64,000 nucleotides of DNA from a virus (IMGVR_UViG_3300024346_000020); one strand, 5' to 3'. Shown: positions 59,999-64,000, counted from the first letter of the stretch. Notes: generated from the letters alone by a model not told the origin. Numbers and translations are program-made.

Positions 59999-61792
59999 TC
60001 ATCCATTTACTCCAACTGAGACTCCTAATGCACTAAGTACTAAAACTGCAGCATCACTAGCAGAAGTACGAGGTCCATTTGCGCCATTTAATACAATTGC
60101 TTTAGGACTTGACCAAGCAGCAGTACTTAATGATATGAGTAACTGATCTACATCACTTGATGTAAGTCCAAATCCAGGACTAGGTAAATGTTGAAAACGA
60201 GATAATGTATTCCAAGATTTAGTAGGACCACCACTTGCAGTAAATGAATTGGTCATGCAATTGTAATTAATATAGGAGTTGATATTTGTTGGTAGATTAT
60301 ACAAGTTTCCATATGTTGAATTTGTTGCACTCAATTGAAAAATCCTTATAGATGGTGGTAGTGTAGCCAAATCTCCAGTTATTGAACTACTACCAACACA
60401 GATAAAGTAAGCCATATTACTTGAGAAACTACCAATATTACCATAAGTTGTATTATAACCATAATTATAATATTGAGACATTACAGGTGGTAATAACCCA
60501 ATATCACCAGTTGTTGTATTAGTACCTCCACACTCAAAACTAAGAAGAGTATTGGGTAAATTGGCAATATTTCCATAAGTTGAGTTAGAACCAAAATTTT
60601 GATAAACTCTAAGTGCACTTGGTAATAAACCAATATCACCAGTTGTTGTATTACTACCATAATTATAGTAAGAACTCATTGATGCAGGTAAATTAGCAAT
60701 ATTCCCAGTTGTTGTATTATAACCCAAATTATAATAATAAGTAAGAGCAGAAGACATTGAACCAATATTACCATAAGTTGAATTACTACCTCCATTAGAA
60801 TAATAAGTCATTGATGCAGGTAATAATCCAATATTACCAGTTGTTGTATTCTTACCATCATTAAAATAAAGAGTAAGATTACTTGAGAAACTACCAATAT
60901 TACCAGTTGTTGTATTTAATCCATCATTAAGATATTGTTTCAATGTAGATGGTAATAATCCAATATCACCACTTGTTGTATTATTACCATAGTTTTTGTA
61001 AAAACTCATTGATGTTGGAAAATTACTTATACTACCAGTAGTTGTATTTAATCCAGCTATACTAAATGTGCCTAATGTACTTGGTAATAAACCAATATCA
61101 CCTGATATTACATTAGAGCCTAGATTAAGTTCTACCGTAAAGGTTCTGAGTGTTGATTGTGAAAATGAGTTTATACTTCCACTTATAGGATGATTAACAG
61201 ATTGATAACCATAACCAATAGAAAAATAATCTAAATTAGGATTATTAGTAGGTATGTTACTAATAGTTCCTGTAATAGAGTTTTTTACAGTATCTATCCA
61301 TATACTATTAAGATTTTTTAAGTTAGTAATGTCAATTGTATAATTAGATAAAGGATTTCCTGAGACTAAATGGAGTTCTTTAAGTTTTAGTAAATCATCA
61401 GTTATATTACTAAAAGTACCTGTTATTTTAGTAGATGCTGTTACACCAGATGTCTGATCCGAATAATATAAATATTTAAGATTAGTAATTTGTTTAAATG
61501 TATCATAATTTACATTTTGATTAAGTTGTACTCTTATATTTCCATTAGAAACCATATTACCATAAGTAGAAACATGAAACTTTGTACTTCCTCTCATCAT
61601 TGATACACTAACCGTACCACTAAAAGGAGTAGAAAATGTTTTTGTGAATAAACTAGTAACCGGAACTTTATTACCATCACCCCAGTCAACTAAGTATCGA
61701 CTACCTACTGTGTTCTCTATTCTAATATTAGATTGTGTTGTACTCACTAAATTGAATGTTATTTCATTTCTTGCACCGCCTCTTTTAAACAT
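59999..61792 (-). CDS. tail-fibre or receptor-binding-like protein with about 22-aa LRR-like repeats (N-x-TTTG-[DN]-I-G-L-L-P-x-S)
   Basis: More than 10 consecutive repeats, e.g. YNYGSNTTTGDIGLLPSALRVYQNFGSNSTYGNIANLPNTLLSF...; its start abuts the stop of the next fibre gene. Confidence 0.55.
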   Translation of the reverse strand: MFKRGGARNEITFNLVSTTQSNIRIENTVGSRYLVDWGDGNKVPVTSLFTKTFSTPFSGTVSVSMMRGSTKFHVSTYGNMVSNGNIRVQLNQNVNYDTFKQITNLKYLYYSDQTSGVTASTKITGTFSNITDDLLKLKELHLVSGNPLSNYTIDITNLKNLNSIWIDTVKNSITGTISNIPTNNPNLDYFSIGYGYQSVNHPISGSINSFSQSTLRTFTVELNLGSNVISGDIGLLPSTLGTFSIAGLNTTTGSISNFPTSMSFYKNYGNNTTSGDIGLLPSTLKQYLNDGLNTTTGNIGSFSSNLTLYFNDGKNTTTGNIGLLPASMTYYSNGGSNSTYGNIGSMSSALTYYYNLGYNTTTGNIANLPASMSSYYNYGSNTTTGDIGLLPSALRVYQNFGSNSTYGNIANLPNTLLSFECGGTNTTTGDIGLLPPVMSQYYNYGYNTTYGNIGSFSSNMAYFICVGSSSITGDLATLPPSIRIFQLSATNSTYGNLYNLPTNINSYINYNCMTNSFTASGGPTKSWNTLSRFQHLPSPGFGLTSSDVDQLLISLSTAAWSSPKAIVLNGANGPRTSASDAAVLVLSALGVSVGVNG

Positions 61793-63984
61793 TAGAAAGT
61801 TATATAATAATTTGATGATGTACCTAATCTATCAATAACACCACTCTCATATTGAGCAAATGTTAAAAGTGTATTAGGTAAAATAGATACTGCTGGTGAT
61901 GAGTATGTAAATGCTATAGTTGCACTAGTATTACTTGAAATAACTATAAATCTAAAGCTAAAGTTAGGTGGTAGTCCAGTATCAGGTATTGTTATTATAG
62001 ATTGACCACTACGATTACACATAATAGTTGTGTTATTCCAACTTGGTAAAGCAGTTGCTGTTGCTGTAGTTATTGTTACTTGTGTGTTTCCTTGCCAAGT
62101 TCCTACACCATTTGCATCAGATGTTAAGACATAACCAGAATAGTTTTGTGTACCATCTTCTAATCTAAATGCACCAGATTGAGTTGAATAGATATGTAGT
62201 TTTGTTGAAGGATCTGTTCCTATACCAACATTACCTTTAAGGTATGTTTTGATTATACTATCATTACCTAAAGTAACTGTATTAGAACCATTACCTATTG
62301 CTTCATGACCTATTACTATTTGATTAGTTTCATTAGAATTTTTAGCTCTTGTAAAATAACCTATAAAAATTGAATTATTTGATATATAATTAAAATAAGG
62401 AGCAGTATTGGTATAATTACCTGCTTCATGACCAAATGAGACATTATTACTACCAATTGTGTTATAATATAAAGATTTAAAACCTACGACAGTATTGCTT
62501 TCTGCTGTTTGTAATGATGCAACTCTTACGGTAAATCCTGTTCCTGGACCTATTGAATTTGGAGCAGCTTTTACTGAGAAAGTTCCTGTTCCCAAATTTG
62601 CACCCATTATAGTTGTATTATCTTGAAATCCACTACCATTTGAAACTATTGTTACTGAACTAACCGTACCACCTGAACCTGTAAAAACATTTACTACTGG
62701 ATAAGTTGTTGCAGTACCTCCAGATATATATGATAGTTGAACATTAGAAAATGTACTACTTGCAGTATAACCTGGACCACTATCTACTATTGATAATGGA
62801 TAAATAGTAGCACCCATAATAGTAGTTGAAGAAGTTCCAAATGTTTTACCTGATGTCTCTAAAGTAACTGAACTAATTGTACCTCCTGTACCAACAACTA
62901 TTGTTGCAATTGGATAATACTCTGTTAGTACTCCCAATACCGGTGATCCACTTGATAAGTTTAATAGTACTCCTGGGTATGTTCCAGGTGTATAACCATT
63001 ACCACTTGAAAAGGTTCCCAATACAGAGACACCGGTAGTGCTTCCCTGTCCTGCAGCATCAAGACCAACTGCAGTATTAAAATTACCTAATGTGCTTAAA
63101 TATAATGCACCATCCCCCATTGCAGTGTTCCATACTCCTGTTCTATTATTAAATAATGAATTTCTACCAGTTGCTGTATTTTGATAACCTGTTGTATTAT
63201 TTGGTAAAGCCTGCCAACCAATTCCAGTATTTGAATCTCCTGTTGTATTAAAAAACATTGAATATTTACCAACTGCAGTATTATAGTTTCCTGTTGTATT
63301 TGTTTGTAATGAACCAGCACCAATTGCAGTATTATCAATTCCTGTTGAATTTGAATCTAATGAACCTGCACCAACTGCAGTATTATATGAACCTGTTGAA
63401 TTTGCTAGTAATGAACCTGCACCAACTGCGGTATTATGTAAACCTGTTGATAGTAATCCTATACCTACTTCAAATCCAGTTCCACCACCAATACTTGAAG
63501 TTGTCATTCTTGTGGTAGTATCTATAAATCCTGAACCTAAATTTGTTCCTAGTGTTACTGATGTAACTTGACCAGTGCCATCAACTATAATGTTTGCCTT
63601 AGGATATGTGATAGCCACACTTCCAGTTGCATAACTCAATTGTACGTTATTATATGTACCAGGTGTATAACCACTACCAGGTGTTATTGTACCAAATGTA
63701 TTAATTACTGATGTATTATTAAGTAATGATTGAACTCCAACTGCAGTATTAGAAGTACCCAATGTATTTATAGTTAATGATTGATAACCAATTGCAGTAT
63801 TACTACTATTCCTATTATATCTTAGTGAATCTGTTCCTATTGCAGTATTGTACAGACCAGATATATTTTGATTTAATGATTGATGCCCAATTGCAGTATT
63901 TGCTTGACCGGATATATTTACCGATAAAGCACTTGCACCAATTGCAGTATTTCTATTACCTGTAGTATTTGCACCTAATGTCAT
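61792..63984 (-). CDS. tail-fibre-like protein with YadA-head-like / hemagglutinin-type NTA[IV]G-x-x-SL repeats; N-terminus probably truncated by the window end
   Basis: NTAIGASALS, NTAIGHQSLN, NTAIGTDSLR, NTAVGAGSLL... repeats; the reading frame stays open upstream of the annotated ATG through position 64000. Confidence 0.55.
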   Translation of the reverse strand: MTLGANTTGNRNTAIGASALSVNISGQANTAIGHQSLNQNISGLYNTAIGTDSLRYNRNSSNTAIGYQSLTINTLGTSNTAVGVQSLLNNTSVINTFGTITPGSGYTPGTYNNVQLSYATGSVAITYPKANIIVDGTGQVTSVTLGTNLGSGFIDTTTRMTTSSIGGGTGFEVGIGLLSTGLHNTAVGAGSLLANSTGSYNTAVGAGSLDSNSTGIDNTAIGAGSLQTNTTGNYNTAVGKYSMFFNTTGDSNTGIGWQALPNNTTGYQNTATGRNSLFNNRTGVWNTAMGDGALYLSTLGNFNTAVGLDAAGQGSTTGVSVLGTFSSGNGYTPGTYPGVLLNLSSGSPVLGVLTEYYPIATIVVGTGGTISSVTLETSGKTFGTSSTTIMGATIYPLSIVDSGPGYTASSTFSNVQLSYISGGTATTYPVVNVFTGSGGTVSSVTIVSNGSGFQDNTTIMGANLGTGTFSVKAAPNSIGPGTGFTVRVASLQTAESNTVVGFKSLYYNTIGSNNVSFGHEAGNYTNTAPYFNYISNNSIFIGYFTRAKNSNETNQIVIGHEAIGNGSNTVTLGNDSIIKTYLKGNVGIGTDPSTKLHIYSTQSGAFRLEDGTQNYSGYVLTSDANGVGTWQGNTQVTITTATATALPSWNNTTIMCNRSGQSIITIPDTGLPPNFSFRFIVISSNTSATIAFTYSSPAVSILPNTLLTFAQYESGVIDRLGTSSNYYITF

Positions 63985-64000
63985 AAAACCAAATGCTGTA

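What the first reader, a model, noticed from the sequence alone, without database searches (positions are those of the whole stretch)
59999..64000. Two tandem repeat-rich tail-fibre genes with distinct adhesin-like repeat types (LRR-like 22-mers and YadA-head-like NTAIG repeats)
The 597-aa protein carries more than 10 consecutive about 22-aa repeats (x-N-x-G-x-N-T/S-T-x-G-D/N-I-G-L/N-L-P-x-S/T-L), reminiscent of BspA-type leucine-rich repeats. The upstream 730+-aa protein (truncated by the window edge) has NTA[IV]G-x-x-SL repeats like trimeric autotransporter or hemagglutinin heads. These are prime candidates for receptor-binding proteins and may indicate host surface targets
Basis: seen in the sequence. 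Interest (0 to 1): 0.5.

Follow-up and report, generated by a model that had tools for sequence, protein, structure and literature searches.

The report
Megaphage tail fibre with LRR partner
A huge bacteriophage encodes a long repeat-built tail fibre followed at once by a 597-residue leucine-rich-repeat protein from an unannotated family; the two always travel together, so the second is probably the part that recognises the host cell, which has not been shown experimentally for any phage.

Summary
Both genes are real, lie on the minus strand at the stated coordinates, and belong to a huge phage of the Mahaphage type.

**p2 (61792 to the window edge)**
- It is 989 aa in a 99.96%-identical contig.
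- It is a tail-fibre or tail-spike type protein: it hits PHROG tail-spike and virion-structural families.
- It has a paralogue-shared N-terminus, 15 NTA[IV]G repeats of 17 aa, and three inserted ~85-aa domains.
- Its likeness to YadA heads is weak. TAA heads top the fold search, but the best E is 0.03, and p2 has no YadA_head hit and no anchor.

**p1 (59999-61792)**
- It has 13-14 repeats of 22 aa (z = 11-23 against shuffles).
- The AlphaFold2 model (pLDDT ~90 in the repeats) matches LRR solenoids. Plant receptor-kinase ectodomains are the best hits (E 1e-10); BspA-type LRRs are not.
- It hits no Pfam or PHROG family and no GenBank phage.
- A profile of the family finds 753 clusters at E <= 1e-30. 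In them the module is fused to phage tail domains, sits where tail-fibre genes usually lie in a Mu-like prophage, or occurs five times in a T9SS surface protein.

**New result**
- Every full-length p1 orthologue lies directly after a fibre gene whose last 150 aa are conserved, although the rest of the fibre differs.
- My best reading is a two-gene "fibre-end domain plus LRR adhesin" unit that moves together. This is inferred, not shown.

The parts
61792..64000 (-). p2: the C-terminal 735 codons of a 989-aa tail-fibre or tail-spike type protein. The N-terminal 254 aa lie beyond the window edge.
   Evidence: The frame is open to the window edge. The full length comes from L001:7032-10001. It hits PHROG tail spike 4636 and virion structural 23837 and 6002. 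The N-terminal 250 aa are shared with the upstream 1461-aa paralogue and with many other fibres.
63700..64000 (-). p2 repeat block 1: six 17-aa NTA[IV]G-x-x-[SA]L-x-x-N-x-x-G units
   Evidence: The AF2 model has pLDDT 70-90 here.
63442..63711 (-). p2 inserted ~85-aa beta domain, copy 1 (GSGYTPGTY...)
   Evidence: BLASTP finds three copies within p2, 42-43% identical to copy 1. The region is predicted all-beta with pLDDT ~90.
63028..63435 (-). p2 repeat block 2: eight 17-aa NTA[IV]G units
   Evidence: (51- and 102-bp DNA periods)
62506..63030 (-). p2 inserted beta domains, copies 2 and 3
   Evidence: pLDDT is low in parts of this region.
62233..62496 (-). p2 last NTVVG unit and the conserved neck motif (IVIGHEAIGNGSNTVTLGNDSIIKTYLKGNVGIGT)
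   Evidence: This is the last segment conserved across the fibre family consensus.
61795..62244 (-). p2 C-terminal 150-aa domain, which occurs only in fibres that are followed by a p1 orthologue. It is the proposed docking domain.
   Evidence: It is 71-100% identical and ends 1-20 nt before the p1 start in L001-L006, L025 and L026, and its end is visible in L015. It is absent from paralogous fibres that share the same N-terminus. It has no PHROG hit.
61790..61794 (-). TAATG: the p2 stop and the p1 start overlap by one base
   Evidence: The same shared coordinate is seen in L004 and L025.
59999..61792 (-). p1: a 597-aa protein built as a PKD-like domain, an LRR region and a cap
61448..61792 (-). 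p1 N-terminal beta domain (aa 1-115) with the VDWGDG motif, which looks PKD-like. It has no signal peptide.
   Evidence: The motif is conserved in the family consensus. The same position hits Pfam PKD in P0231. AF2 confidence is moderate to low here.
61142..61447 (-). p1 irregular N-terminal LRR units (aa 116-217)
   Evidence: There is a weak HMM match to the plant LRR protein SOBIR1 (E 0.073) and to Pfam Recep_L_domain (E 0.011). The predicted structure alternates strands and turns.
60284..61141 (-). p1: thirteen regular 22-aa LRR units (aa 218-503)
   Evidence: pLDDT is about 85-96. The fold matches LRR ectodomains.
60002..60283 (-). p1 C-terminal cap (aa 504-597), a beta-alpha-beta-alpha-beta unit with the motif GLTSSDVDQLLISL...NGPRTSASDAAV
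   Evidence: pLDDT is 94-97. It is conserved throughout the family.

Best explanation
The two genes form one host-recognition unit of a huge phage whose host is probably a member of the Bacteroidota.

**p2** is a fibre.
- Its ~250-aa N-terminal domain is shared with paralogous fibres and is inferred to anchor it to the virion.
- Its shaft is made of 17-aa NTAIG beta-roll-like repeats, interrupted by three small beta domains.
- It ends in a 150-aa C-terminal domain.

**p1** is translated from an overlapping start codon. It is a stand-alone module made of a PKD-like domain, about 17 leucine-rich repeats (13 of them a regular 22-mer) and a C-terminal cap. It is predicted to fold as an LRR solenoid.

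**Proposed mechanism.** p1 binds the C-terminal domain of p2 and is the distal adhesin. Its variable strand positions (2, 3, 5, 7 and 9 of each unit, rich in Tyr and Asn), which I infer to be the concave face, contact a host surface molecule. Changes in repeat number and in these residues retune specificity.

**Shown:** the genes, the repeats, the predicted LRR fold, the fibre affiliation of p2, and the invariable linkage of p1 orthologues with the p2 C-terminal domain.

**Inferred:** physical binding of p1 to p2, presence of p1 in the virion, the adhesin role, the ligand, and the host.
For: **Phage context**
- A 1068-aa neighbouring protein is 74% and 67% identical to proteins of the 634- and 642-kb phages LR745206 and LR756502. 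These belong to the Mahaphage clade, with predicted Bacteroidetes hosts (PMC7162821).
- A collagen-like tail fibre and other phage genes lie in the window.

**p2 is a fibre**
- It hits PHROG tail spike and virion structural families and annotated tail fibres by tblastn.
- Its N-terminus is 58-63% identical to that of the upstream 1461-aa paralogue and 57-90% identical to those of 20 other full-length fibres.

**p1 is an LRR protein**
- The AF2 model has mean pLDDT 82 and pTM 0.76.
- Foldseek against the PDB gives RGFR1, MIK2 and BRI1 at E 1.5e-10 to 1e-8, the CroV FNIP-LRR at 1.2e-4 and InlA at 4.6e-4.
- Ten of 69 family representatives hit Pfam LRR_4.

**Linkage of p1 with the p2 C-terminus**
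- In every locus that holds a full-length p1 orthologue (52-100% identity), the p2 C-terminal 150 aa (71-100% identity) are encoded immediately upstream.
- This holds although fibre length (620-1211 aa) and the fibre N-terminus differ.
- The stop and start codons overlap.

**Tail association of the module elsewhere**
- P0029 lies downstream of Mu-type baseplate genes (Gp45, GP46, Baseplate_J) and upstream of a lysin in a Rhodobacteraceae prophage.
- P0022 carries Pfam Phage_tail_C.
- P0232 is fused to phrog_5939 'tail protein' at E 3.6e-51.
- P0014 lies near a Peptidase_S74 fibre.

**Variability**
- The most variable positions are 2, 3, 5, 7, 9, 21 and 22 of the unit, while G8, N10, T12, G14, I16 and L19 are fixed.
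- Orthologues differ in repeat number.
- p1 has no N-terminal signal peptide (read from the sequence), which fits assembly in the cytoplasm.
Against: - There is no direct evidence that p1 is in the virion or that it touches p2. No complex prediction could be run.
- p1 has no PHROG family and no tblastn match in 50,697 GenBank phage records, including its closest megaphage relatives. The pair is therefore not a conserved part of this phage lineage.
- LRR proteins are usually monomers and fibres are usually trimers, so the stoichiometry is unexplained.
- p1 corresponds to exactly one self-contained module of a bacterial T9SS surface protein (P0231) and has no obvious extra docking segment.
- The p2 C-terminal domain is modelled poorly (pLDDT 40-70).
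Confidence: 0.5

Rival explanations
1. p1 is a tail-fibre assembly factor, a chaperone for the p2 C-terminal domain in the manner of T4 gp38/gp57A or lambda/Mu Tfa. It would be absent from the mature virion or only loosely retained.
For: It occupies the gene position directly after the fibre gene, with overlapping codons. It is strictly linked to one particular fibre C-terminal domain. Unlike most NTAIG-type fibres in the database, p2 lacks a Peptidase_S74 intramolecular chaperone, so a chaperone acting in trans would make sense.
Against: A protein of 597 aa with about 17 LRR units and variable strand positions is far larger and more variable than known fibre chaperones (my own knowledge of those families). 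In other phages the same module is covalently fused to tail-protein domains or forms the C-terminal end of long proteins. That arrangement fits a functional distal domain, not a chaperone.
Confidence: 0.12
2. p1 is a virion-borne receptor-binding protein that attaches somewhere other than p2, for example to the baseplate or to another fibre. Its linkage with the p2 C-terminus would then reflect only co-inheritance of neighbouring genes.
For: Distant relatives stand alone in tail modules without the p2 C-terminal domain.
Against: The upstream fibres differ in N-terminus, length and shaft, yet keep exactly the last 150 aa next to p1 in at least seven distinct variants. That pattern is expected for a functional pair and not for simple neighbourhood.
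Confidence: 0.15
3. p1 is not a structural protein. It would be an intracellular or released LRR protein that binds a host or phage protein, for example in host takeover or anti-defence, and merely happens to be encoded in the fibre cluster.
For: LRRs are generic protein-binding scaffolds. Huge phages carry many non-structural accessory genes, including a Gad2-family gene in this window. p1 has no hit to any structural PHROG.
Against: It is translationally coupled to a fibre gene. It is linked to the fibre C-terminal domain. The module is fused to tail proteins or placed in tail modules in unrelated phages. The module also occurs in extracellular proteins: a T9SS cargo protein and proteins with fn3 or Ig-like domains.
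Confidence: 0.13
4. The repeats are compositional or low-complexity artefacts of Ser/Thr/Asn/Gly-rich ORFs and have no defined fold.
For: Both proteins are rich in S, T, N and G (47-51% of residues).
Against: The periodicity stands at z = 11-23 against residue shuffles. The register is conserved in hundreds of homologues. The AF2 models are confident in the repeat regions.
Confidence: 0.01

Closest known systems
Plant-specific-type LRR ectodomains (RGFR1 5hz0, MIK2 8yaa, BRI1 3riz and 4lsx)
   Same: These are the best fold matches to the p1 model (Foldseek E 1.5e-10 to 1e-8, TM 0.40-0.47). The p1 motif T-G-x-I after the asparagine resembles the plant [ST]-G-x-I-P motif, which forms a second small sheet. 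There is also a weak HMM match to SOBIR1.
   Different: The unit is 22 aa rather than 24. Positions 4 and 6 hold Tyr/Phe and Asn instead of Leu. Sequence identity is only 16-20%. p1 has no kinase, no membrane segment and no Cys-pair caps. It has a PKD-like N-terminal domain and an alpha/beta cap instead.
FNIP-type 22-residue LRRs of giant viruses (CroV, 7zal and 6nyr; Pfam FNIP PF05725)
   Same: The repeat length is the same (22 aa) and the origin is viral. Foldseek gives E 1.2e-4 (PDB) and 1.5e-5 (BFVD). One of 69 family representatives hits Pfam FNIP.
   Different: p1 itself has no FNIP hit and TM-scores are low (0.2). FNIP proteins belong to viruses of eukaryotes and are often fused to F-box domains.
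Two-gene fibre-plus-distal-adhesin arrangement of T2-type phages (gp37 followed by gp38)
   Same: The gene order is the same: the fibre gene is followed directly by a smaller gene, and the pairing tracks the fibre's C-terminal end. This is a functional analogy drawn from my own knowledge, supported here only by the linkage data.
   Different: There is no sequence or fold relationship. gp38 adhesins are about 260 aa with Gly-rich motifs, whereas p1 is a 597-aa LRR solenoid. Binding of p1 to p2 has not been shown.
NTAIG-repeat 'tail fiber domain-containing' and 'beta strand repeat-containing' proteins of phages and Bacteroidota, usually ending in Peptidase_S74
   Same: p2 shares the 17-aa repeat with more than 7300 database proteins, with PHROGs 4636, 23837 and 6002, and with the tail fibres of pelagiphages, cyanophage P-SSM2 and SPO1.
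   Different: p2 has no Peptidase_S74 domain. It ends instead in a 150-aa domain found only next to p1 orthologues.
YadA-like heads of trimeric autotransporter adhesins (BpaC 7o23, BoaA 3s6l, CbpF 9gh5)
   Same: These fill the top five Foldseek matches to the p2 model. BoaA aligns over 133 columns at TM 0.50 and 23% identity. Two p2 relatives carry Pfam YadA_head.
   Different: All matches are above E 1e-3. The unit is 17 aa rather than 14. p2 has no YadA_head hit, no signal peptide and no membrane anchor. A p2 profile finds no solved structure by sequence.
LRR or BspA-like proteins annotated in other phages (Goslar DUF7941 proteins, Klebsiella phage N1M2, a vibriophage tail-module ORF)
   Same: In these cases too, LRR or beta-helix domains are proposed from prediction alone to act in host recognition (bioRxiv 10.64898/2026.04.21.720040; PMC10945359; BFVD hits).
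   Different: They are only remote fold matches (TM 0.1-0.2, E about 1e-3). They have different N-terminal modules. None has the fibre-C-terminus and LRR gene pairing.

Membership tests
Leucine-rich repeat (LRR) superfamily (p1) | Tandem units of 20-30 residues | tested here: met
   There are 13 regular units plus one degenerate unit of exactly 22 aa, with further irregular units upstream.
Leucine-rich repeat (LRR) superfamily (p1) | Conserved segment LxxLxLxxN/CxL with an asparagine ladder | tested here: inconclusive
   The unit is [LM]xx[YF]xNxGxN. It has a hydrophobic residue at positions 1 and 4 and a near-invariant Asn at position 10, but Asn replaces Leu at position 6 and there is one extra residue before the ladder Asn.
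Leucine-rich repeat (LRR) superfamily (p1) | Solenoid fold with one strand per unit forming a parallel sheet | tested here: met
   This rests on prediction only. The AF2 model has pLDDT 85-96 in the repeats. The top 30 Foldseek PDB matches are all LRR proteins, the best at E 1.5e-10.
Leucine-rich repeat (LRR) superfamily (p1) | Match to a curated LRR profile | tested here: not met
   p1 has no Pfam LRR hit; it has only Recep_L_domain at E 0.011, below the cut-off. Ten of 69 family representatives and three earlier relatives do reach LRR_4.
BspA-type / TpLRR (Pfam LRR_5) (p1) | Match to LRR_5, or closest fold among BspA-like proteins | tested here: not met
   Neither p1 nor the 85 scanned relatives hit LRR_5. 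BACEGG_03329 (4eco) is rank 35 with probability 0.16. BspA-annotated phage proteins reach only E of about 1e-3 and TM 0.17.
PKD domain (p1 N-terminus) | Match to Pfam PKD, or the WDFGDG-type motif in a beta sandwich | tested here: inconclusive
   The VDWGDG motif is present and conserved in the family. The equivalent domains of P0231 hit PKD at E 8e-21. p1 itself has no PKD hit, and the model is of low confidence at aa 67-126.
Phage tail fibre or tail spike with NTAIG repeats (p2) | Match to phage tail-fibre or tail-spike families | tested here: met
   phrog_4636 'tail spike' at E 1.9e-34, phrog_23837 at 2.1e-34 and phrog_6002 at 1.9e-28. There are tblastn hits to annotated tail fibres.
Phage tail fibre or tail spike with NTAIG repeats (p2) | C-terminal Peptidase_S74 intramolecular chaperone, common in this group | tested here: not met
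   p2 has no Pfam family at E <= 1. Many relatives carry PF13884.
Phage tail fibre or tail spike with NTAIG repeats (p2) | Presence in the virion and trimeric assembly | not testable with these tools
   This needs proteomics or a multimer structure.
Trimeric autotransporter adhesin / YadA head (p2) | YadA_head repeat profile (PF05658) | tested here: not met
   p2 has no hit. Only P0136 and P0211 among the 120 listed relatives have it.
Trimeric autotransporter adhesin / YadA head (p2) | Left-handed beta-roll head fold | tested here: inconclusive
   TAA heads are the five best Foldseek matches, but at E 0.03 to 1. The model is a monomer.
Trimeric autotransporter adhesin / YadA head (p2) | C-terminal membrane anchor and N-terminal signal peptide | tested here: not met
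   There is no anchor domain in Pfam. The full-length N-terminus MSIQFGDILRHNNPNY has no hydrophobic leader.
Fibre plus separately encoded tip adhesin (T2 gp37/gp38-like arrangement) | Adhesin gene directly downstream, and its presence tracks the fibre's C-terminal domain | tested here: met
Fibre plus separately encoded tip adhesin (T2 gp37/gp38-like arrangement) | Physical binding of the adhesin to the fibre tip, and binding to a receptor | not testable with these tools

The most novel reading that the evidence does not exclude
p1 would be a monomeric LRR solenoid that docks on a dedicated 150-aa end domain of a trimeric megaphage fibre and acts as the receptor-binding tip. The 'dock plus LRR' pair would be a mobile two-gene unit swapped between otherwise different fibres. 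The LRR module would share ancestry with T9SS-secreted surface proteins of the phage's likely host phylum, Bacteroidota. That would be the first defined LRR-based receptor-binding system in a bacteriophage. It would also define a new LRR subfamily of more than 750 clusters that current Pfam and PHROG models miss.
Probability: 0.35. Interest if true: 0.6.

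Novelty: new variant of a known kind. Interest (0 to 1): 0.42.

Why it matters
- **Host recognition in megaphages.** Host recognition by uncultivated megaphages is unknown, and none of these phages has a cultured host. A fibre tip built from an LRR scaffold would add a new kind of structure to the known phage receptor-binding proteins. LRR scaffolds are the ones that plants and animals use for pattern recognition.
- **Host prediction.** The link to T9SS surface proteins gives a handle for predicting the host.
- **Annotation.** The family is sizeable (753 clusters at 50% identity with E <= 1e-30) but invisible to Pfam and PHROGs, so a profile of it would improve the annotation of phage tail modules.
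- **The fibre itself.** p2 is an ordinary member of a very large and already recognised fibre class.

Tried and rejected
- **p1 against GenBank phages.** tblastn found no match at E <= 1e-3. The low-complexity filter may mask the repeats, but the non-repeat ends also found nothing.
- **p1 against family libraries.** Pfam and PHROG scans gave nothing usable.
- **Searches of solved structures by sequence.** The p1 orthologue profile found only SOBIR1 at E 0.073. p2 as a single sequence and as a profile found nothing.
- **First degenerate DNA pattern.** It had a spacer of 34 nt instead of 33 and found nothing in genome contigs, viral contigs or the window.
- **Corrected pattern.** It was checked on the window (4 matches) and then found 3 bacterial genomes and 10 IMG/VR contigs. 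The pattern demands NTTxGxI..LP, so it misses variants such as NTxTGNL in P0231. These counts therefore cannot show that the module is rare in bacteria, and I dropped that conclusion.
- **Fusions of p2-like and p1-like sequences.** A BLAST search among 90 p1 relatives found none.
- **TGA read-through or recoding at the p1 stop.** I rejected this. p2 and its neighbours have no in-frame TGA, and the adjacent tRNA array holds no suppressor tRNA.
- **Literature.** Searches found no experimental study of an LRR receptor-binding protein in a phage, only predictions.
- **Cluster names.** The look-up was uninformative.

Full report
**Where the window comes from**

The window is AT-rich (GC 25-37%) and carries phage genes:
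- a collagen-like tail fibre at 209-2356;
- an SbcC-like nuclease;
- an NAD-dependent ligase;
- a glycosyltransferase.

The 1068-aa product of 42280-45486 is 74% and 67% identical to proteins of the uncultured phages LR745206 (634 kb) and LR756502 (642 kb), and about 29% identical to Lak phages. Al-Shayeb et al. place these genomes in the Mahaphage clade, with predicted Bacteroidetes hosts (PMC7162821).

Next to the finding lie a TyrRS gene, a YqeY-like gene and a tRNA array. A public contig (L001) is 99.96% identical to the window over 14 kb and extends it by 7.8 kb beyond the window's right edge.

*p1 (59999-61792, minus strand, 597 aa)*
- It has thirteen regular 22-aa units plus one degenerate unit.
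- The consensus is [LM]xx[YF]xNxGxN[TS]T[TY]G[ND]I[GA]xLPxx.
- Periodicity exceeds all 2000 residue shuffles (z = 11-23).
- It is visible in the DNA as 66- and 132-bp periods.

*p2 (61792 to the window edge, minus strand)*
- It is open to the edge and is 989 aa in L001.
- It has fifteen 17-aa NTA[IV]G units in blocks of 6, 8 and 1 (z = 10-15 within the blocks).
- The blocks are separated by three copies of an ~85-aa beta domain.

The p2 stop and the p1 start overlap (TAATG).

**What p2 is**

- It matches PHROG families annotated as tail spike and virion structural protein (E 1e-28 to 1e-34). Its N-terminal 250 aa also match virion structural families.
- tblastn finds the repeat region in annotated tail fibres or spikes of pelagiphages, roseophages, P-SSM2 and SPO1.
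- More than 7300 database proteins share the repeat. Many end in Peptidase_S74 and are named 'tail fiber domain-containing protein'.
- The gene upstream of p2 in L001 encodes a 1461-aa paralogue with the same N-terminal ~250 aa (58-63% identity) and the same repeat type, but a different end. This is the usual layout of alternative fibres that share one attachment domain.

The YadA-head idea is only weakly supported.
- In the AF2 model (pLDDT 74 overall, ~90 in the repeat blocks) the five best PDB matches are all trimeric-autotransporter heads, but at E 0.03 to 1.
- p2 has no YadA_head hit, no anchor and no signal peptide.
- A p2 family profile finds no solved structure by sequence.

p2 is therefore an ordinary member of a large, recognised fibre class. 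It is not a TAA.

**What p1 is**

- It has no Pfam family above cut-off, no PHROG family and no tblastn match in 50,697 phage records.
- The AF2 model, built on 51 homologues, has mean pLDDT 82 and pTM 0.76, with 85-96 across the repeats and 94-97 in the C-terminal cap.
- Foldseek against the PDB returns only LRR proteins at the top: plant receptor-kinase ectodomains RGFR1, MIK2 and BRI1 (E 1.5e-10 to 1e-8), a CroV FNIP-type LRR (1.2e-4) and internalin A (4.6e-4).
- The T-G-x-I motif after the ladder asparagine parallels the plant [ST]-G-x-I-P motif. A weak SOBIR1 match (E 0.073) agrees with this.
- No BspA-type (LRR_5) signal was seen anywhere.
- In BFVD the nearest viral models are giant-virus FNIP or LRR proteins and a few phage proteins annotated as LRR or BspA. 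All are remote (TM 0.1-0.3).

**The family behind p1**

- A word-indexed search found 102 relatives.
- An exhaustive profile search found 4715 cluster representatives at E <= 1e-3, 1911 at 1e-10 and 753 at 1e-30.
- The family consensus keeps three parts: an N-terminal beta domain with a (V/I)DWGDG motif, the 22-aa units, and a cap with GL(T/S)xxEVDxLLIxL...GxNxxRTxASDAAV.
- In most longer relatives this unit is the C-terminal end of the protein.
- The best-scoring representative, P0231, has a signal peptide, five tandem copies of the whole PKD-LRR-cap unit, and a T9SS C-terminal sorting domain. p1 therefore equals one complete module of a Bacteroidota-type surface protein.

Other members are clearly from phages:
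- P0029 lies after Mu-type baseplate genes and before a lysin, in a prophage of an uncultured Rhodobacteraceae genome.
- P0022 carries Phage_tail_C.
- P0232 is fused to phrog_5939 'tail protein' (E 3.6e-51).
- P0020 and P0014 sit in 208-kb and 93-kb phage contigs near a tail terminator, a lysozyme or a Peptidase_S74 fibre.
- Among 69 representatives, 10 hit LRR_4, 7 hit fn3, 5 hit Fib_succ_major and several hit tail-protein PHROGs.

**The new result: a linked pair**

Twelve proteins are full-length orthologues of p1 (52-100% identity, 553-659 aa). They differ by whole repeats.

Every locus recovered for them shows the same arrangement: L001-L006, L015, L025 and L026, from at least seven distinct variants.
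- The last 150 aa of p2 (71-100% identical) are encoded immediately upstream.
- That domain ends 1-20 nt before the p1 start.

The fibres that carry this end domain range from 620 to 1211 aa. Outside the end domain they are only 42-47% identical to p2, and several lack the p2 N-terminal domain. Conversely, many fibres with the p2 N-terminus have other C-termini and no p1.

The end domain and the LRR gene therefore behave as one unit that has moved between fibres.

**Mechanism proposed (inferred)**

- p1 docks on the p2 end domain and forms the distal adhesin.
- Within the repeat, the positions that vary most between units and between orthologues are 2, 3, 5, 7 and 9 of the first strand, plus 21 and 22. 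G8, N10, T12, G14, I16 and L19 are fixed. This is the pattern of LRR ligand-binding faces.
- The variable positions are rich in Tyr and Asn, which would suit a carbohydrate ligand. That last point is speculation.
- p1 has no signal peptide, which fits assembly in the cytoplasm.

**Rivals**

The rivals are a fibre chaperone, an adhesin attached elsewhere on the virion, and a non-structural LRR protein.
- They are weakened by the size and variability of p1, by the specific linkage to the fibre end domain, and by the fusions to tail proteins in other phages.
- None of them is excluded, because nothing here shows p1 in a virion or in contact with p2.

**Limits**

- Both structures are monomer predictions.
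- The p2 end domain is poorly modelled (pLDDT 40-70).
- The DNA-pattern census (3 genomes, 10 viral contigs) is biased by the strict motif. It says nothing reliable about how the family is divided between cells and viruses.
- The two-repeat deletion variant P0002 could be an assembly collapse.

**Verdict**

- It is wrong or unproven in its specifics: p1 is not BspA-type, p2 is not a TAA, and p1 is not a fibre homologue.
- p2 is ordinary.
- p1 and its coupling to a dedicated fibre end domain make a new variant of the fibre-plus-tip-adhesin theme, and it belongs to an unannotated LRR family.
- Interest is moderate.

Noticed in passing
window 58724-59966 (+): This is a tRNA array of 11 genes. ARAGORN's default settings find 9: Trp, Phe x2, His x2, Lys, Arg and Ser(tga) x2. 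Rfam and a relaxed ARAGORN run add tRNA-Ser(gga) at about 59787-59873 and tRNA-Ser(gct) at about 59880-59966. Four tRNA-Ser genes therefore lie directly beside fibre genes that are 12-14% Ser. There is no suppressor tRNA.
   Followed up: partly
window 59625-60002 (-): This 125-aa ORF is called as a gene in the public contig L001. It is the antisense strand of the tRNA-Ser genes, and its repeated GIEPY motif comes from the tRNA T-arm. It is almost certainly not a gene.
   Followed up: partly
window 59984-60001 (-): The p1 stop codon TGA sits where orthologues have Arg or Leu. It is followed in frame by FGAN and TAA, exactly as at the orthologues' C-terminus (VNG[R/L]FGAN). This looks like a recent nonsense change that removes 5 aa. 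I found no sign of TGA recoding in neighbouring genes.
   Followed up: partly
P0002 versus window 60434-60700 region of p1: A variant from another sample is 100% identical to p1 outside the repeats but lacks exactly two 22-aa units (44 aa). It is either a real repeat-number polymorphism or a collapsed assembly.
   Followed up: no
window 49955-51208 (+): The public annotation of the near-identical contig assigns the 417-aa product to Pfam Gad2 (PF26128), which from my own knowledge is a phage anti-Gabija family. SmpB, thioredoxin, YqeY and TyrRS genes lie nearby (51574-56503).
   Followed up: no
window 12683-17332, 19222-24816 and 37993-42270 (-): These are three very large ORFs (1549, 1864 and 1425 aa). 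None has a Pfam or PHROG family apart from a weak pentapeptide-repeat hit in the 1864-aa one.
   Followed up: no
L001:1-6995 (beyond the right edge of the window): Two more large genes lie in the same orientation upstream of p2. One is a 1461-aa paralogous fibre with the same N-terminus and about 21 NTAIG units but no p1-linked end domain. The other is an ORF of more than 860 aa with no PHROG hit. Together with p2 and p1 they form a cluster of four genes.
   Followed up: partly
P0231 (metagenomic protein, 1690 aa): This bacterial T9SS-sorted protein is made of five tandem copies of the complete PKD-LRR-cap module that forms p1. It points to exchange of the module between Bacteroidota surface proteins and phages, in an unknown direction.
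   Followed up: partly
window 58261-58707 (+): This 148-aa ORF has Cys pairs and an HNH-like motif (DHRDN...CANCH). It lies between small ORFs and the tRNA array and looks like a homing-endonuclease-type gene. I read this from the sequence only.
   Followed up: no
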